DNA of 64,000 nt from a virus (taxonomy: Duplodnaviria; Caudoviricetes): the IMG/VR virus record IMGVR_UViG_3300010882_000012; one strand, 5' to 3'. The first letter of the stretch is position 1, and each line of letters opens with the position of its first letter. A program made the position numbers and the translations under genes. The notes beneath the pieces are model-generated. The model ran no database searches and was not told where the DNA came from. It saw nothing but the letters and a program-made list of their open reading frames with translations. This document shows positions 38,667-55,486 of the stretch, one piece after another.

Positions 38667-39938
38667 TTAACGCTCTATAATTTCAACGATATAACGAATT
38701 GTTGACTGTTCTGTAGAATAAACCATAAACTCATTATTACGAATTGAAGTGCCGGCATGAGCATAAACACTATCAAAACCTTCACGATCAAGTTGTTTTT
38801 TATTTAAATCATAACAAGCCGATGTATGATTATAGATATGTTTTTGATTGCCCACATGAACATCATAGATTGCTAAGAAAGCTTTTTTGCTACAACCCTT
38901 TGCCCAATAAGAACCAGAAAGAGAAGTATATCCAATAGATTTTTGTGCTTTATCTGCAAAATAAACAGAATTTCCATACATTGCACCTGTAATTATTACA
39001 CCCGCCGGACGTATTAAAAGTCCGGTTTGCAAGATGTTCATCCAATTTTCATTTCTGCTACCATGCCAAAACAGTTCGCATTTTTGGTTTTTGGCTTTTG
39101 CAACATAGCTCTTAAAGTTTCCTTCTGTTTTTTTGTTTACCACAGAAAAAGCTCTTTTGTACTGACCGGAATTGTTTCCCATCATTTTCTTAATGAGTTC
39201 TGCTTCTTTAGAAGACACTTCTTTAACTTCTAGTCCAAGTACCTCAAGCATGTCCATAGTGCTCTTAGAATTGCCCGTTTGCGTCCTGGTGGCTTCTTTT
39301 TGTTTCTTTATTGCTTCAACCTGACCCGCCATAACGTCCAAAAGTTTTTGTTCATCATCTAGCATTCGTTGTAATGATGAGGTAGAGTATCCGCTTTCTA
39401 CAAGATGGTTTTTTACGTGAGCCATTTTTCTCGGTACTGTTCGATACAATTTCAACAAACAATCATTAATAGTTGTTGAAGTACTTTGATTTCTTAAATG
39501 ACCAACCAAGTTGTCAAGGATTTTTTGAGCCTCATCAACTTGTGCTTGTGTAACATCTTCTTGAGTTACAGAATAGTTTTCTTTAATGGTTTTGTTTGCA
39601 TATGCTTGGAGTTCGTCAATGAGTTGACGCACCATAGCATTCTGGATGGCGGTTACTTGTGCTCCGGTTGTAGCATCTTTGATATCGGCCTCAATCTTTT
39701 CAGTATAGAGGTGTGTGATATCATTGTAACCTTTTTTGGTTTTTTCACGATACTTTTTATCCCAATCCGACATAGGATAAGAGTGCTCTATGGAGGTAGA
39801 TTCTATCCTGCCATAAACCACTTTAAAATTTCCATCGTTCTGCTCGAACATATGGTAAAACTTGTTGTTATTGTCCCCTGTAACACAAACCAGTTTTTTA
39901 ACTTGTTTGCCTGGTACCGAGTAATCTGATATTTTCAT
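38667..39938 (-). CDS. PARP-family ADP-ribosyltransferase with N-terminal WGR-like domain
   Basis: NNNKFY...VVYGRI...EKTKKGY (WGR-like); FWHGS, GAMYGNSVYFADKAQKSIGY, RNNEFMVY = H-Y-E triad. Confidence 0.92.
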   Translation of the reverse strand: MKISDYSVPGKQVKKLVCVTGDNNNKFYHMFEQNDGNFKVVYGRIESTSIEHSYPMSDWDKKYREKTKKGYNDITHLYTEKIEADIKDATTGAQVTAIQNAMVRQLIDELQAYANKTIKENYSVTQEDVTQAQVDEAQKILDNLVGHLRNQSTSTTINDCLLKLYRTVPRKMAHVKNHLVESGYSTSSLQRMLDDEQKLLDVMAGQVEAIKKQKEATRTQTGNSKSTMDMLEVLGLEVKEVSSKEAELIKKMMGNNSGQYKRAFSVVNKKTEGNFKSYVAKAKNQKCELFWHGSRNENWMNILQTGLLIRPAGVIITGAMYGNSVYFADKAQKSIGYTSLSGSYWAKGCSKKAFLAIYDVHVGNQKHIYNHTSACYDLNKKQLDREGFDSVYAHAGTSIRNNEFMVYSTEQSTIRYIVEIIER

Positions 39939-39959
39939 ATGATATTGAATTTTGATAGT

Positions 39960-40018
39960 ACAAAAATACCGCTTTTTTCTTTACGATGAGAACCTAGATG
40001 GAAAAAGATACTAACAAT
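39960..40018 (-). promoter_or_regulatory. Promoter motif copy 7 (drives PARP unit)
   Basis: ATTGTTAGTATC...GTATTTTTGT, 59 bp. Confidence 0.85.
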
Positions 40019-40038
40019 TTCATGATAAGGTTTAAACT

Positions 40039-40127
40039 AAAAAAGTCCTTGATTACTCAAAGACTCTTTTAGACGTTCAAAAATCATTATTCACAAAATC
40101 TTGATAAATGAAAAAATCAAAAATTGT
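40039..40127 (-). ncRNA. Candidate ~85-nt U-rich small RNA with own promoter and terminator
   Basis: Lies between promoter copy 8 and hairpin terminator ~40039-40068; too short for a credible ORF. Confidence 0.55.
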
Positions 40128-40130
40128 ACT

Positions 40131-40189
40131 ACAAAAATATTGTAATTCTAGATATGAAAGTTTAGTTACATGAAAAAGTTACTAACAAT
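40131..40189 (-). promoter_or_regulatory. Promoter motif copy 8 (no downstream gene)
   Basis: 59-bp motif. Confidence 0.8.
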
Positions 40190-40195
40190 CTGTTT

Positions 40196-40575
40196 AAAAA
40201 GAAAAACGCCCATAGATTCTTTCTGGGCGCTTCTCGTCAGATTTTTGGGCGAAGGTTCTGTAACACCTTTTCTGGCAGCCTAATGGACCTAGTTGAAATC
40301 AATTGTTTTCTGTCCCGGCAGCATGCCCCATAAACCAAGATTCATTTCATGTTCAGGTTCTTGGTCGACCTGATTGCCGGCAAGGTGTTTTCGCTTTCGC
40401 TACGGATTACCTTCGGTGCCGGCAGGCATTCTAAAGACCTGACTCGCGATTCCCGAACGGTTCGCATTATAGCGGCGGGCTCGAGGAGGTCTGGTTTTTC
40501 CGAGTTGACGTTAGGATTCCGCGCGGAGATTCCTGGTTTCTGATCAGCCTACCAGGTAGTGTCAATCGGATGAGA
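40196..40575 (-). ncRNA. Candidate ~370-nt structured non-coding RNA (RNA-A)
   Basis: About 50% GC by hand count (187/370 for 40201-40570); multiple nested helices; own promoter (copy 9) and terminator (CGCCCA...TGGGCG + T-run). Confidence 0.75.
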
Positions 40576-40577
40576 TT

Positions 40578-40635
40578 GTAAAAATACTAAAAATATCAAT
40601 GCGAAAATTTAAAAAGAGAAAAAGTTACTAACAAT
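40578..40635 (-). promoter_or_regulatory. Promoter motif copy 9 (drives RNA-A)
   Basis: 58-bp motif followed by structured RNA instead of the usual A-rich leader. Confidence 0.85.
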
Positions 40636-40660
40636 TTAAACAATTTTTGATGAGGTTTAA

Positions 40661-40920
40661 AAAAGAAAAGAGTCCTTAGATTACTCTAGGACTCTCTTCA
40701 CCACCCAAATTGCTATTTGATTCCCCAATAGGTTGCAACCCTCCCAAGATTTCGGCATAGGTTCTTGGTTGACCGTCTTCTAGGTTGCTGGCGGTAATAC
40801 GCTTTAAAAGCTTCCGCATCTTGCATTAACCTAATCGTGATTTTTCACCCCGACCACACTATTTGGTTGTTTTCAGCCCGGTTGTGAACCTCCTCGATTA
40901 CTCGTTCGAGTCGACAATAG
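40661..40920 (-). ncRNA. Candidate ~220-nt structured RNA (RNA-B) plus terminator, in the 3' region of 40924..41751
   Basis: GC-rich hairpins; shares GGTCRACCAAGAACCT...AATCTTGG with RNA-A; terminator ~40661-40698. Confidence 0.65.
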
Positions 40921-40923
40921 ATA

Positions 40924-41751
40924 TTAAAACATGTCTGCTTTTAAAATACGGATACGAACATCCGGATAAGGAACTCCAGTATAACGAGAATAAGCAGCTT
41001 TTGCTTGATTTTTTGTCATTACAGCATCATAATAACGCTCTTCCTCATCCGGGAATTTAACAGGATGTCCAAAACAAACATAATCTCCTTTTTCAGGATA
41101 TGTAATACCTGCATCCTTATCATCAGTATCATCAATATCATCTTCAAGACGATATTGAGAATTTGCAAGCGCGCAAGGTTCATCATCAACTGTTGAAAAA
41201 AGCTCTGGATGGAATTCTTCAAGTTCTTCTAACGTAATTTCACCATAATGGATATTGGCTAAGTACTTTTTCAAATTTTCGCGGGTACCGGTCAAATTTG
41301 CGGAGGTGTTTCCAGTTACTTCAATTTCCAAATTGTAGTTTTGCAACACCTCTAAGGCCTCATCAAGTTCTTCTTCATCACATACCCAATCAACATCAAC
41401 AATGAATTGGTCATTAAGTCCGTAAAGGTCTGTAACCATTGCATTTACGGCTTGGTCATGTGCATGATCTTCATCATTCATTGCATTCAAAATGGTAAGC
41501 GCACGGAGATCATCCATAGCTTGTGCATCACAAAGAGATTTGAAGTAAATCCGGTAGTCTCCATTGTGTCTCCAGTCTATAACACCCTCATTTTTGAGGT
41601 CTTGCATGAAAGTTGAAACAATTTGCTGCGTTGCCCAAAAATCGTTGGCGCGTAATTCGTTTTTAACTTCTAAAGTTGTGGTTTCTCCGTTCAATTCGAT
41701 TAGAGTTTGTGCAACCACTTGCACATCATTTTTTGTAGTTGTCTTTTTCAT
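40924..41751 (-). CDS. Acidic multidomain protein with winged-helix-like N terminus
   Basis: TTTLEVKNELRANDFWATQQIVSTFMQDL...YRIY; D/E-rich middle. Confidence 0.8.
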   Translation of the reverse strand: MKKTTTKNDVQVVAQTLIELNGETTTLEVKNELRANDFWATQQIVSTFMQDLKNEGVIDWRHNGDYRIYFKSLCDAQAMDDLRALTILNAMNDEDHAHDQAVNAMVTDLYGLNDQFIVDVDWVCDEEELDEALEVLQNYNLEIEVTGNTSANLTGTRENLKKYLANIHYGEITLEELEEFHPELFSTVDDEPCALANSQYRLEDDIDDTDDKDAGITYPEKGDYVCFGHPVKFPDEEERYYDAVMTKNQAKAAYSRYTGVPYPDVRIRILKADMF

Positions 41752-42264: not shown

Positions 42265-42323
42265 GTAAAAATACTGCTTTTTTCTTTATAATGAGGCCCT
42301 AGATAGAAAAAGTTACTAACAAT
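42265..42323 (-). promoter_or_regulatory. Promoter motif copy 10
   Basis: 59-bp motif. Confidence 0.85.
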
Positions 42324-49886: not shown

Positions 49887-50780
49887 TTAAAGTTGAACAT
49901 TTTTAATTAATTTGAACATTGGTATGGCTTTAAGTTTATGCTGCGACATCAGATTTCTTCCCATTACTGTTTTCACTATACCGGGTCGGATATTTTCATT
50001 TGCAATAAATTCCGGTGTCGCATAAAGTATGAAATCATCAAGTTGTTCATATGAAAATCCAAGTTCTTCTTCATCAGATTGACCTTCCCAAAGATCAGCA
50101 CTTGGTTTTTCATTGATGATAGATTTCGGAACACCAAGATATTCAGCAAGAACATAAACCTCTCTTTTTGTGCACCAACCGAGAGGATTAAGGTCACATG
50201 CACCATCGCCCCATTTTGTAAAATAGCCACAATAACGTTCTGAAAGATTGCCGGTACCTATTACAAAACGACTCATGAGTTGTGCCATTTGATAAAGGTG
50301 ATTCATTCGGATACGAGCACAAACATTAGCTTTTGCCAGATTTGCTGCTTCTGGTGTAAAAGATTTATCCCAAAAAAGACTATTTTCTGTAACAAGCATA
50401 GAATTGACTGTTTTGGTAATATTAAAAGTTTGCCATTCAAAGTCAAACTTGTCAACTAATTTCACACAGCGCTGCATAGAAGAGTTGTTTCCTCTTGACA
50501 TGGATTCTCCATAAGGCATGGATATGAGTTGCACCGGTACATTTGCAATTTGACAAAGTCTTGCAACAACAGAGCAATCTACACCGCCTGACATGCCAAG
50601 TACAACACCTTTGCGATTTGCTTTTGCTACAGCATTTGCAATCCAATCTGACATAAGATTAGCATAATGTGCAACATTTTTACTATCAATAATTTCTTGT
50701 TTTAGTTGAGCCGGCATGGGACAACTTTTGTTTAAATTTTCAGTATTTTCCATTTTTGTAATTTTAGAGGTTGTAAACAC
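49887..50780 (-). CDS. nadE: NH3-dependent NAD+ synthetase
   Basis: VLGMSGGVDC, ARIRM, GTGNLSE..GYFTKWGDG, KPSADLWEGQSDEEELG. Confidence 0.93.
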   Translation of the reverse strand: MFTTSKITKMENTENLNKSCPMPAQLKQEIIDSKNVAHYANLMSDWIANAVAKANRKGVVLGMSGGVDCSVVARLCQIANVPVQLISMPYGESMSRGNNSSMQRCVKLVDKFDFEWQTFNITKTVNSMLVTENSLFWDKSFTPEAANLAKANVCARIRMNHLYQMAQLMSRFVIGTGNLSERYCGYFTKWGDGACDLNPLGWCTKREVYVLAEYLGVPKSIINEKPSADLWEGQSDEEELGFSYEQLDDFILYATPEFIANENIRPGIVKTVMGRNLMSQHKLKAIPMFKLIKNVQL

Positions 50781-52461
50781 GTTTCATTTCTTTATTATAG
50801 AGAACTTTAATTTCATCCCATGAATTTAAGTAATAAAATTCTCCATCTTTGTAGAATTCTTTGAGTAAGTTTTTGTCTCCATATGCATCTGCTTCTTCAG
50901 GAGTCAAGTTGTCAATCATAGCATAGTTGTTTTTAGATTCATCCCAAATAACAACCGGTATACCGGTAGGAGATTTTTTAAAACTGTTCTTTTCAGATTT
51001 TACGAGTTTTTGAATTTTTTTGAAAACACCTGACATGATTTCTGCAATTCCTTTTAATGCAAAACCAAACGTATCTCTCGTAACATACTGATAAGTGAAT
51101 GAACCAATTCCAAAGCTAACGTTAATACTTGCAAATCCTTTGTCTCTAAGACGTTTGCAAATTTTGAAACATCTCTCAATTGTAATAGCATCACCGTAAG
51201 TAATTCCAATATGAGAATCATGTTCCTTAAAACCGTTTGCGTTTACAGTGCCACCGAATTCATTCCAAAGTGCTTCACACAATCCCAAATCTTCTACAGT
51301 CGGTGTGTACTCTTCATAGATATCTTTCCATGGATGATAAGCCGAAATCGAATGATCATCTTCTCTTGTTACTTTCCACCAGCTTCCATCTTTTAATCTG
51401 AAAATAACGCCTAATCTCATTTCAGCAAAACCATTATTATGATAGTATTTCTTTGCTTCTGCCATGGTTAAGAAAATTTTTGTTTCTCTTCCACAAACAA
51501 CTTCAACCGGATCACCACTGTCAGGGCGGATGAAAACTTTTCCAGGTCTTGATAAAATTTGAGGTTTTATCTCCGGCAATACAGTAGAGATAACATTCCA
51601 AAAATCGTAAGTATCTGAAACAATTGAGATGTTGCCGCTTGGATACTTCTTTGTAATAAGAGTAAGAAATCCACGAACCTCATCAATTCCCCAACTACAC
51701 ATTACAGAATGTTCGGTTGACGGATTACAAGAAATAGCTCCTTTTGGTTTTTGATAAAAAGCTTTAAGATAATTACGGACAGGAACAGTAGCTGAAACAT
51801 TAAAAGCAAGTAGATGTCCAGGACCTGTGCGATATGCTGCTTCCGGTTGATTCATGCCTCTCATTGAAAAGTCGCCGGCTTGATTATCAACTCGGACTTC
51901 ATCTACACCTGTTTCTCTTGCAAATTGGATGAGAATTTTTTTGTAAACGGATGAGATAGTCCCGGATGTCATTGGACTCCAGATGTAAGAAGAAAGTTGA
52001 GTTTCGATATAGCCAGGAATCCAGAAAAATCTTGGATCTGTATTCTCAATAGTAAACATTGCAACGCCAATAGGTACAAAAGTACCTTCCGCAAGTGCTT
52101 TTACCTTAATAGGAAGATATCCTAAAGCATGTAAAGCCCTAACATGTTCAGAACCATGATTAGCCGCCCATTCTGGATTTGTCTTTTTAAAGATATCTGT
52201 AATGGTCTCTTCGTATTCTGCAACTACATCTTCAACAGGTCTAGAGAAAAAGTAATCTTGGAAATTTTGTGTGATTTCTGCTAAAGCTCCTTGTAAAGAG
52301 TAAAAGCATACATGGTTAATTCCTTCTGCTCGTGACATCCGTGGAATCCAAGTTTCTAAAATCCATTCAATACCATCAGGATATTGGGACATGTGACAAA
52401 TTTTGTAGACATCTGTCATGTCCATTGGATTTTTGATCATTCTGTCGTTTAATTGAAACAT
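50764..52461 (-). CDS. NAMPT/NadV-family pyridine transferase, probably nicotinate-accepting
   Basis: TDVYKICH, DFSMRG, STEHS, SIVSDTYD, FIRPDSGDP, YGDAI, FGIGS, TRDTFGFA; SAT in place of the usual TDT. Confidence 0.9.
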   Translation of the reverse strand: MFQLNDRMIKNPMDMTDVYKICHMSQYPDGIEWILETWIPRMSRAEGINHVCFYSLQGALAEITQNFQDYFFSRPVEDVVAEYEETITDIFKKTNPEWAANHGSEHVRALHALGYLPIKVKALAEGTFVPIGVAMFTIENTDPRFFWIPGYIETQLSSYIWSPMTSGTISSVYKKILIQFARETGVDEVRVDNQAGDFSMRGMNQPEAAYRTGPGHLLAFNVSATVPVRNYLKAFYQKPKGAISCNPSTEHSVMCSWGIDEVRGFLTLITKKYPSGNISIVSDTYDFWNVISTVLPEIKPQILSRPGKVFIRPDSGDPVEVVCGRETKIFLTMAEAKKYYHNNGFAEMRLGVIFRLKDGSWWKVTREDDHSISAYHPWKDIYEEYTPTVEDLGLCEALWNEFGGTVNANGFKEHDSHIGITYGDAITIERCFKICKRLRDKGFASINVSFGIGSFTYQYVTRDTFGFALKGIAEIMSGVFKKIQKLVKSEKNSFKKSPTGIPVVIWDESKNNYAMIDNLTPEEADAYGDKNLLKEFYKDGEFYYLNSWDEIKVLYNKEMKRVYNL

Positions 52462-54444: not shown

Positions 54445-54523
54445 ACAAAAATAGCATAATTTTCTTTACCATGTTGTTTAAAAAGAGAAAAGTTACTAAC
54501 AATTTGTGATGCCAGTAACTTTT
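54445..54523 (-). promoter_or_regulatory. Promoter motif copy 15 fused to terminator; nearest motif upstream of the NAD operon
   Basis: AAAAGTTACTGGC-atcacaaatt-GTTAGTAACTTTT. Confidence 0.8.
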
Positions 54524-55000
54524 ACTCTATTTCCCATTCTCTTTCTTCTGTGGTTGCTTCCGACTGAACTACAAACTCTGGGAGAAGTTTGTTTCTCGTT
54601 TCACAAATTCAAGATACGTCTCACCACCAGATATTACCTGAATCTCCACGAGCTTAAATTCGATATGTTCTATACCTACTCGTTCTCTTAGTACTAATTA
54701 GATTAATTAAAGTTAGCGTTCTCATCAATTTCTCTGCTTAGTTATCATCAATCAAAATTCTATTTTATTATGCGCAAGTTTTAAAAAGTTTTAGAATTGT
54801 TGGAAAAAAATTGAAATTTTATCCGGTCTTTCATGTGCTTTACAAACTAAAGATTGACAACCGATTTCTTTTAGTGCACATTGTTGACAATCATTTAGTT
54901 GATATGATTTTACTACTTTGTATCGATTTCCTTTAAATCGGCATGTAGTTCCTAACTCTATGAAAAACTTTTTCTTCTTTTTCATATACTATCTATTTTA

Positions 55001-55030
55001 TAAAAAGAGCCTCAGATTTCTCTAAGGCTC
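55001..55030 (-). terminator. Intrinsic terminator
   Basis: AGAGCCTTAGA-gaaa-TCTGAGGCTCT + T-run. Confidence 0.8.
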
Positions 55031-55129
55031 TAGATGGTGGACCATCATGATTGCCGGTCTAATTTAATCATCCGGATGATGGTCCTTCCTGCCTGGCGAG
55101 GACTGCATTTCACCAGTCCGGAAAGTGTG

Positions 55130-55486
55130 TTATGATAACGGTTGTGAAGTTGTTGCACACCATGGACCTCTATTAGCTGCCCAGGACGTCTCACAACGGA
55201 GATTGATACTTGGAATAGCATAACAAACTTTGAGGTCACCAAGGTGGTCATTTACGCCCAAAAATTGAGCATCACGATAACCATATGCTTTGGCATATTT
55301 TTCAAAACGACTACGGATTGTTCTAACCGTACTTGCCCATTTTCTACGACCTTCTGAATTGTTGAGGGAGATAATGGTACTTTGAAGTGCACGATAAACA
55401 CCGTCACGACAATTTTCGTAAACTGCATTTGTACTTACAGCTTCTTCACGAGCTGATGTTGCTGGATTTTCTTTTTTTACTGACAT
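55130..55486 (-). CDS. Hypothetical protein (start corrected to MSVKK)
   Basis: ATG follows the promoter leader. Confidence 0.7.
   Translation of the reverse strand: MSVKKENPATSAREEAVSTNAVYENCRDGVYRALQSTIISLNNSEGRRKWASTVRTIRSRFEKYAKAYGYRDAQFLGVNDHLGDLKVCYAIPSINLRCETSWAANRGPWCATTSQPLS

What the first reader, a model, noticed from the sequence alone, without database searches (positions are those of the whole stretch)
40335..40920. A second structured RNA (RNA-B) shares a core motif with RNA-A, suggesting an ncRNA family with two copies
Seen: RNA-A has GGUCGACCAAGAACCUGAACAUGAAAUGAAUCUUGG (40335-40370) and RNA-B has GGUCAACCAAGAACCUAUGCCGAAAUCUUGG (40744-40774): 15/16 identical nt plus the same CCAAGA/UCUUGG stem with a variable loop. 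In both, a long stem capped by A-GC-loop-GC-G precedes the core. The loop sequence differs in step with an upstream partner (ACCUG with CAGGU in A; ACCUA with UAGGU in B), which looks like compensatory change. The rest is divergent. Inference: a conserved functional module (protein-binding, ligand-binding or catalytic).
Basis: partly seen in the sequence, partly recalled or inferred. Interest (0 to 1): 0.85.

Follow-up and report, generated by a model that had tools for sequence, protein, structure and literature searches.

The report
Shared box-hairpin motif in phage RNAs
Two GC-rich non-coding transcripts of an AT-rich phage with no close relatives share a short conserved box that opens a hairpin, and I found a third copy; the motif is real but seen only in this phage, and its function (probably one common binding site near terminators) is unproven.

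Summary
The sequence observation holds. On the minus (transcribed) strand, RNA-A (40370-40335) and RNA-B (40774-40744) share a 16-nt box, 15/16 identical. Both continue into the same 6-bp hairpin with unrelated loops. Shuffle tests give p about 0.005 for the box alone. I found a third copy, RNA-C (55043-55025), in the only other GC-rich non-coding stretch of the 146-kb record. There the box abuts an intrinsic terminator between two ORFs, and a 10-nt block shared with RNA-A sits just upstream.

The rest of the claim is weak. Outside the box, A and B are not significantly alike (z 1.6). The "A-GC-loop-GC-G" cap is trivial. The loop/partner "compensation" is one pair, with p between 0.006 and 0.15 depending on the freedom allowed.

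No Rfam family matches. No homologue turned up in phage, viral, metagenome or prokaryote collections. Four other assemblies of the same phage are identical in the A/B region, so no covariation test is possible.

Best reading: a motif private to this phage, a box plus hairpin that serves one common partner near terminators, carried by otherwise unrelated structured transcripts. The whole RNAs do not form a demonstrable family. Interest is moderate.

Other first-stage notes on this same genome had already listed RNA-A and RNA-B. Nothing was noted on other DNA.

The parts
40201..40577 (-). RNA-A: predicted stand-alone non-coding transcript of about 375 nt, the most GC-rich stretch of the record
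   Evidence: GC reaches 0.57 against 0.30 for the genome. No ORF under code 11, code 4 or TAG=Q. No Pfam hit on the short ORFs. Fold z-score -2.8.
40578..40634 (-). RNA-A promoter region: upstream motif TTGTTAGTAAC... (40634-40619), 31-nt spacer, then a GTATTTTTAC box (40587-40578)
   Evidence: It sits in the same register as 20 other units on the minus strand of the record that lead into ORFs.
40355..40370 (-). Box in RNA-A (GGUCGACCA + AGAACCU)
40335..40364 (-). Core hairpin of RNA-A: 6-bp stem CCAAGA/UCUUGG with an 18-nt loop that starts ACCUG
   Evidence: Read from the sequence. The arms are identical to those in B. Not favoured in the ensemble.
40437..40441 (-). Candidate pseudoknot partner CAGGU in RNA-A (a second copy lies at 40372-40368)
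   Evidence: Statistically weak.
40375..40424 (-). Long hairpin of RNA-A just 5' of the box; its 3' strand carries the 10-nt block shared with RNA-C
   Evidence: MFE fold. Shared 10-mer.
40201..40235 (-). Intrinsic terminator of RNA-A
   Evidence: 12-bp stem plus U run.
40665..40923 (-). RNA-B: structured 3' untranslated region that starts directly after the stop codon of the 275-aa ORF (40924-41751); no promoter motif of its own
   Evidence: GC 0.43. Fold z-score -1.8.
40759..40774 (-). Box in RNA-B (GGUCAACCA + AGAACCU)
40744..40768 (-). Core hairpin of RNA-B: the same 6-bp stem, with a 13-nt loop that starts ACCUA
   Evidence: Pair probability 0.31.
40829..40833 (-). Candidate pseudoknot partner UAGGU in RNA-B
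40665..40699 (-). Intrinsic terminator of RNA-B, homologous to that of RNA-C
   Evidence: B-versus-C terminator alignment: 0 of 2000 shuffles reach the score.
55001..55129 (-). RNA-C (new here): structured element after the 118-aa ORF (55130-55486), followed by a 64-aa ORF (54791-54985) that has no promoter motif of its own
   Evidence: Fold z-score -6.7.
55025..55043 (-). Box in RNA-C (GGUCCACCA, a 3-nt insert, then AGAGCCU). The second half is the 5' arm of the terminator (55031-55006).
55048..55057 (-). 10-nt block CCGGCAAUCA, shared with RNA-A (40380-40371) directly 5' of the box
   Evidence: Three copies in the whole record; these two are the ones followed by the box.

Best explanation
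RNA-A and RNA-B are transcribed, non-coding, GC-rich elements of a 30%-GC phage with Bacteroidota-type promoters and no close relatives in the collections searched. They share one short module rather than a whole-RNA architecture. The module is a linear box (GGUCNACCA, then AGARCCU) whose 3' part opens a hairpin. It occurs three times in the record, always on the sense strand, always in non-coding RNA, and always upstream of an intrinsic terminator: 4 nt (C), about 60 nt (B) and about 120 nt (A).

I read it as the recognition site of one common trans-acting partner. The most likely partner is a protein, or the transcribing polymerase itself, acting on termination, read-through or 3'-end processing and stability. 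This would work in the manner of the box-plus-hairpin nut sites or the put RNAs of lambdoid phages. RNA-A has its own promoter and terminator, so it could also titrate that partner.

Shown here: the motif, its three copies, its non-coding and transcribed context, and the terminators. Inferred: that a partner exists, and what it does.
For: - The box is 15/16 identical between A and B, and both stem arms are identical while the loops differ in length and sequence. Shuffle p is about 0.005.
- The flanks are at random-level similarity. This is an island of constraint, not uniform decay after a duplication.
- The exact consensus has 3 hits in the record, all on the minus strand and all in GC-rich non-coding RNA, against 0 hits in 150 genome shuffles.
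- RNA-C was picked by GC content alone. A loose fuzzy match there has p about 0.0035, derived from the 7.9 hits per shuffled genome. C also shares a 10-mer with A directly 5' of the box.
- In C the box is fused to a terminator that lies between two ORFs, and the second ORF has no promoter motif.
- RNA-A sits behind a promoter in exact register with those of the mRNA units and ends in a strong terminator.
- There is no coding potential.
Against: - No homologue was found outside this phage, so there is no covariation and no conservation test.
- No N-, NusG-, CsrA-, RT- or Ro-like partner gene was found in the record. The record is estimated to be only 56% complete.
- The distance from box to terminator varies about thirty-fold.
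- A and B are far larger than any known nut or put site, which a mere binding site does not explain.
- The consensus that includes C was written after C had been seen.
Confidence: 0.4

Rival explanations
1. One reading: A and B are two members of a self-contained structured-RNA family. Its core is a hairpin-type pseudoknot (loop ACCUR pairing with an upstream YAGGU) that forms a ligand-binding or catalytic centre.
For: Both loop/partner pairs exist and differ in step. With the register fixed, p is 0.0056. High GC and a GAAA-capped stem in A fit a folded RNA. RNA-A folds better than shuffles (z -2.8).
Against: It rests on one compensatory pair only. The p value rises to 0.06-0.15 with realistic freedom. 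A carries a second, adjacent CAGGU that competes for the loop. RNA-C has the box but no such loop or partner. No riboswitch or ribozyme model scores, even at E up to 10. RNA-B (z -1.8) is not clearly more stable than shuffles.
Confidence: 0.2
2. A relic of duplication. The box plus hairpin is a decayed copy of a 'box + terminator' unit such as the one intact in RNA-C. It was spread by local duplication and carries no function of its own.
For: The terminators of RNA-B and RNA-C, and by eye that of the neighbouring small RNA, are clearly homologous. In C the second half of the box is the terminator's 5' arm. The A and B hairpin loops end in a GAAAU-type sequence like the terminator tips.
Against: Neutral decay should erode the box as much as its flanks. 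Instead 15 of 16 box positions and both 6-nt arms are kept while the flanks are at random level.
Confidence: 0.2
3. A DNA-level site: the box, with its GGU..ACC dyad, is bound as DNA, for instance as an operator or as an ops-like non-template-strand pause or recruitment signal.
For: The 8-nt core is a perfect palindrome in A and keeps 3+3 symmetry in B and C. The same phage uses another short DNA motif in about 20 copies for transcription control.
Against: All three copies have the same orientation and lie inside transcribed, structured, GC-rich RNA. The conserved stretch continues asymmetrically into an RNA-type hairpin whose two arms are both kept. No NusG/RfaH-like gene was found.
Confidence: 0.1
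4. Chance resemblance between two GC-rich stretches.
For: A 15/16 match somewhere in a 64-kb window is expected many times over.
Against: Within the two elements p is about 0.005. Both also carry the complementary arm. A third copy with an extra shared 10-mer exists.
Confidence: 0.05

Closest known systems
Lambda nut sites (boxA + boxB) and HK022 putL/putR antitermination RNAs (from established knowledge; no model on hand)
   Same: A short conserved linear box next to a hairpin. Two or more copies per phage genome. Located in transcribed non-coding RNA after a promoter or after a first gene and ahead of intrinsic terminators. Flanks not conserved between the copies.
   Different: No sequence likeness was tested or seen. 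No N-like or NusG-like factor was found. The carrier RNAs are 130-375 nt and heavily structured. Read-through was not measured. The host type (Bacteroidota-style promoters) has no described system of this kind in phages.
phi29 prohead RNA (pRNA, Rfam RF00044)
   Same: A phage-encoded structured RNA in which a loop of AACC type is complementary to a GGUU-type segment, with that pairing varying between relatives.
   Different: No match to any Rfam model, pRNA included, at E up to 10. It is not next to packaging genes. The complementarity here is statistically weak and may be intramolecular.
CsrB/CsrC-type protein-sponge RNAs (Rfam RF00084)
   Same: This was the best Rfam score for RNA-B. Several GGA-containing hairpins are followed by a terminator, and the build is modular.
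   Different: The score is 22.2 bits against a gathering score of 61. No CsrA was found in the record. The GGAAUC repeats are not above shuffle expectation.
Large structured phage RNAs of unknown function (GOLLD, ROOL, HEARO and similar Rfam families)
   Same: GC-rich, structured non-coding RNAs carried by phages.
   Different: No model match. These elements are much shorter, and no tRNA genes lie nearby.

Membership tests
Any Rfam 15 family | Covariance-model score at or above the family's gathering score | tested here: not met
   No match in the 64-kb window at gathering thresholds. With permissive filters the best hit over 39900-40960 is CsrC at 22.2 bits against 61. Over 54480-55200 the best is 21.8 bits against 39.
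CsrB/CsrC sponge RNAs | A CsrA partner protein encoded by the phage (host not available) | tested here: not met
   PF02599 was not found in the 146-kb record. The record is about 56% complete and the host genome is unknown.
nut/put-type antitermination RNA | A conserved box plus hairpin in two or more copies in transcribed non-coding RNA | tested here: met
   Three exact copies of the consensus, all sense strand and all non-coding.
nut/put-type antitermination RNA | Position between a promoter or first gene and a terminator, with downstream genes that depend on read-through | tested here: inconclusive
   Met for RNA-C: the 64-aa ORF after its terminator has no promoter motif. After A and B the next units have promoters of their own.
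nut/put-type antitermination RNA | The element raises terminator read-through in cis | not testable with these tools
   This needs in-vitro transcription or Term-seq.
phi29 pRNA | Covarying loop-loop complementarity | tested here: inconclusive
   One covarying pair; p between 0.0056 and 0.15 depending on the freedom allowed.
Retron msr/msd RNA | An adjacent reverse transcriptase | tested here: not met
   PF00078 is absent from the record. The neighbouring genes are a PARP-domain protein and proteins with no known family.
Bacterial Y RNA | A Ro60 (TROVE) partner and a tRNA-like module | tested here: not met
   PF05731 is absent. ARAGORN finds no tRNA-like gene.

The most novel reading that the evidence does not exclude
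The structured RNAs next to the phage's WGR-PARP gene are working partners of that enzyme, either as RNA activators or as substrates of ADP-ribosylation (RNA-linked modification). The shared box would be the enzyme's recognition element, in a phage that also makes its own NAD+. The evidence does not exclude this. It counts against it that five PARP relatives at 51-58% identity with sequence held upstream of the gene carry no long non-coding stretch or box there, and that RNA-C lies 15 kb away from the PARP gene.
Probability: 0.04. Interest if true: 0.8.

Novelty: new variant of a known kind. Interest (0 to 1): 0.38.

Why it matters
If the box-hairpin is a real recognition site, it would be a first handle on how a large Bacteroidota-type phage controls transcript ends or read-through. 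That control is well understood only in lambdoid phages. It would also supply three natural variants of the site (N = G, A, C; with and without a 3-nt insert) for direct binding and read-through assays. At present the motif is seen only in this one phage lineage and has no comparative support. Its value is that of a well-defined, testable lead rather than a discovery.

Tried and rejected
**Homologue searches**
- blastn of the 1-kb region against 50,697 phage records: nothing.
- Exact 16-mer in IMG/VR: 22 hits, none followed by the complementary arm and no other likeness in the flanks printed.
- Box plus hairpin pattern in JGI metagenomes: 5 hits. In 185,579 prokaryote genomes: 2 hits. None showed any likeness beyond the pattern; the two genome hits lie in long open frames.
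- The A/C-type 19-nt pattern in IMG/VR: 5 hits. Four lie in open frames. One (L062) lies in a non-coding leader and is followed by a hairpin, but it is single-copy in its record and unrelated otherwise. I treat it as an unresolved lead, probably chance.
- The terminator-type pattern in IMG/VR: 21 chance hits.
- A covariance model of the core found only A and B in the phage's own record. It found nothing in the 140-kb relative G001 or in nine PARP-relative loci.
- blastn against 401 Bacteroidota genomes matched little beyond short stretches, mostly in the AT-rich spacer, at E-values expected for 401 searches.

**Synteny**
- The 275-aa, 421-aa, 286-aa, 571-aa and 118-aa proteins have no relatives.
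- Of six PARP-relative contexts fetched, five hold sequence upstream of the gene and none has a long non-coding stretch there; the closest one (L030, 65%) begins at the gene.
- Three further assemblies of the same phage cover the region and are identical over the 1 kb; a fourth is cut inside RNA-A.

**Motifs I looked at and dropped**
- A second 'GUCRAC + hairpin' box 140 and 142 nt upstream of the core. My rough hand count of trials (no tool run) puts chance near 0.1-0.2.
- GGAAUC occurring four times: within shuffle expectation.
- A third ACCU-loop hairpin near the 3' end of A: most GAACCU sites in the record show a 4-bp stem by the same lenient criterion.
- A 19-nt A/B similarity that lies in a different order relative to the core (D8).
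- RNase-P-type 'helix + ACCA' ends: this fits C only (read by eye and the sequences).
- Intermolecular pairing of A with B, A with C, B with C, and the small RNA with A or B: not better than shuffles.

**Other checks**
- Coding under codes 4 and TAG=Q: no ORF.
- MAFFT misaligned the three cores, so the three-way consensus rests on the regex match.
- A generic fuzzy model (2 substitutions plus 3 insertions) is not discriminating genome-wide: 12 real hits against 7.9 in shuffles.

Full report
**Setting.** The window is part of a 146-kb IMG/VR virus record (bases 63901-127900), estimated to be 56% complete. The record is 29.9% GC. Nearly all genes lie on the minus strand, and there are no tRNA genes. 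A 16-nt motif (TTGTTAGTAAC...) occurs 16 times in the window against 0.03 expected, and 21 times on the minus strand of the record. It is followed at a fixed 31-nt spacing by a GTATTTTTAC box of the Bacteroidota -7 type, then by an A-rich leader and an ATG. The finding lies in a 985-nt gap without genes. On one side is a 275-aa ORF (40924-41751, no known family). On the other is a 423-aa PARP-domain gene (38667-39938; Pfam PF00644, E 2e-21). This gap is by far the most GC-rich intergenic region of the record, with up to 0.59 GC in 100 nt.

**The observation.** Read on the minus strand, both quoted strings are present at the stated coordinates.
- The 16-nt box is identical at 15 of 16 positions.
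- In both RNAs its last bases open the same 6-bp stem.
- The stem closes on loops of 18 nt (A) and 13 nt (B) that share little beyond their first four bases.
- Local alignment of A against dinucleotide shuffles of B reaches the observed score in 6 of 1000 and 11 of 2000 trials.

The match is therefore unlikely to be chance, and the retention of both arms adds to that.

**What the two RNAs do not share.** Outside this island they are not demonstrably alike. The 150 nt upstream align at z 1.6 (89 of 1000 shuffles do as well), and the downstream parts at z 0.35. The 'long stem capped by A-GC-loop-GC-G' does not hold up. A has a 12-bp hairpin (40424-40375), whereas B has a 4-bp stem (40817-40791). 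The proposed loop/partner compensation (ACCUG with CAGGU, ACCUA with UAGGU) is really in the sequence, but it is a single pair. Its chance probability is 0.0056 if the register is fixed in advance, 0.06 if any shared register counts, and 0.15 if partners may lie on either side. RNA-A also has a second CAGGU directly 5' of the box, which the energy model prefers. In the ensemble the shared hairpin has probability 0 in A and 0.31 in B.

**Transcript anatomy.** RNA-A has the full promoter architecture in exact register with the mRNA units and ends in a 12-bp terminator. It is predicted to be an independent RNA of about 375 nt. RNA-B starts right after a stop codon and has no promoter motif. It is therefore the 3' untranslated region of the two-gene unit that starts at the motif at 42322, and it ends in its own terminator. 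Neither stretch holds a credible ORF under code 11, code 4 or TAG=Q, and the short ORFs hit no Pfam family. Fold z-scores are -2.8 (A) and -1.8 (B).

**A third copy.** Screening the whole record for GC-rich non-coding stretches gave one further candidate, at window 55129-55001. It lies after a 118-aa ORF and before a terminator, and that terminator is followed by a 64-aa ORF without a promoter motif.
- It folds very well (z -6.7): two hairpin domains, a short single-stranded linker, and the terminator.
- It carries the box as GGUCCACCA, a 3-nt insert, then AGAGCCU.
- The consensus 'GGUCNACCA, 0-3 nt, AGARCCU' has exactly three hits in the record (A, B and C), all on the sense strand. It has none in 150 shuffled genomes.
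- That consensus was written after C had been seen. A generic fuzzy model is not discriminating genome-wide (12 real hits against 7.9 in shuffles).
- Restricted to the 130 nt of RNA-C, which was chosen by composition alone, the loose model still gives p of about 0.0035.
- Independently, C shares a 10-mer with A directly 5' of the box. That 10-mer has three copies in the record, and two of them are these.
- The terminators of B and C are clearly homologous (0 of 2000 shuffles reach the score). By eye the terminator of the neighbouring 85-nt unit is of the same type.

In C the first half of the box closes the long hairpin, its ACCA is unpaired, and its second half is the 5' arm of the terminator.

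**Search for relatives.** No search turned up a homologue.
- No Rfam family matches at gathering thresholds. With permissive filters the best scores are CsrC at 22 bits against 61 and 21.8 against 39 for the RNA-C region.
- blastn against phage records finds nothing.
- Exact-pattern scans of IMG/VR, JGI metagenomes and one genome per prokaryote species return only the few hits expected by chance, none alike beyond the pattern.
- A covariance model of the core finds only A and B in the phage's own record, and nothing in a 140-kb relative or in nine PARP-relative loci.
- 401 Bacteroidota genomes match little beyond short stretches, mostly in the AT-rich spacer, at E-values expected for 401 searches.
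- The flanking proteins have no relatives at all.
- The PARP gene has thousands of relatives. Of the six contexts fetched (51-65% identity), five hold sequence upstream of the gene and none has a non-coding stretch there; the closest (65%) sits on a contig that begins at the gene.
- Three other assemblies of the same phage cover the A/B region and are base-for-base identical there; a fourth is cut inside RNA-A.
- One IMG/VR hit to the 19-nt A/C-type pattern lies in a non-coding leader and is followed by a hairpin (L062). It is single-copy in an unrelated record, and five hits is about what chance predicts. I leave it as an open lead.

No comparative (covariation) test is therefore possible with the data at hand.

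**Interpretation.** Three points stand on solid ground. The region is non-coding. It lies in transcription units with recognisable promoters and terminators. It carries a short motif that is kept far better than its surroundings in three places.

The pattern is a linear box running into a hairpin, in several copies, on the sense strand, always ahead of an intrinsic terminator, once fused to a terminator that a downstream ORF must read through. This is what one expects of a recognition site for a common trans-acting factor working on the transcript or on the polymerase. The best-known analogues are lambda nut sites and HK022 put RNAs (from established knowledge, not tested here). I give this reading 0.4.

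It does not explain why A and B are so large and structured. I also found no candidate partner: NusG, CsrA, reverse transcriptase and Ro60 domains are all absent from the incomplete record.

The rivals, in order:
- A non-functional relic of 'box + terminator' duplications, 0.2. The island-like conservation argues against it.
- A DNA-level site, 0.1.
- Chance, 0.05.

**Verdict.** What is shared is a module, not a family of whole RNAs, and there are three copies rather than two. It matches no described RNA family. With no relatives, no expression data and no partner, it remains a well-defined lead of moderate interest, seen only in this one phage.

Noticed in passing
window 55001-55129 (minus): A very stable structured element (z -6.7) in the 3' UTR of a 118-aa ORF, ending in a terminator that separates it from a promoter-less 64-aa Cys-rich ORF (54791-54985). 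It looks like an intra-operon attenuator. It carries the third copy of the box.
   Followed up: partly
whole record, e.g. window 55598-55561, 37378-37342, 19597-19567 (minus): The 'promoter' motif TTGTTAGTAAC... is in many units the 3' arm of a 10-14-bp hairpin (partner AAAAGTTACTA) followed by a T run. It then acts as a composite terminator-promoter joint. At RNA-A, the small RNA and the PARP gene only the half-site is present.
   Followed up: partly
window 40699-40665, 40066-40043, 55031-55006 (minus): The terminators of RNA-B, of the 85-nt unit and of RNA-C form their own sequence family (stem, AGA, GNAA-type tip, UCU, stem). This family is distinct from the TAGTAAC-type hairpins that end most mRNA units.
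   Followed up: partly
window 40490-40481 and 40897-40888 (minus): A 10-nt perfect complementarity between RNA-A (anti-Shine-Dalgarno-like ACCUCCUCGA) and the 5' part of RNA-B. About 0.08 such matches are expected by chance, and duplex energy over the whole RNAs is not above shuffles.
   Followed up: yes
window 40110-40097 versus 40342-40329 (minus): The neighbouring 85-nt small RNA can pair over 9 bp with the 3' arm of the core hairpins of A and B (I8). This is not significant in duplex-energy shuffles.
   Followed up: yes
window 54503-54790 (minus): About 290 nt without an ORF, between the 64-aa ORF and the next promoter joint. GC is moderate and no Rfam hit was found.
   Followed up: no
window 49887-52461 and 38667-39938: The phage carries NAD+ salvage genes (nicotinamide phosphoribosyltransferase, NAD synthetase) together with a PARP-domain protein. 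This combination is already described for gut jumbo phages (PMC11662467, title and abstract only).
   Followed up: no
L062:7330-7545 (minus), IMG/VR contig 3300023220_000155: An unrelated viral contig has the 19-nt A/C-type string in a non-coding leader, directly followed by a 5-bp hairpin, in a region with three short promoter/terminator units. It is single-copy there and is probably chance.
   Followed up: partly
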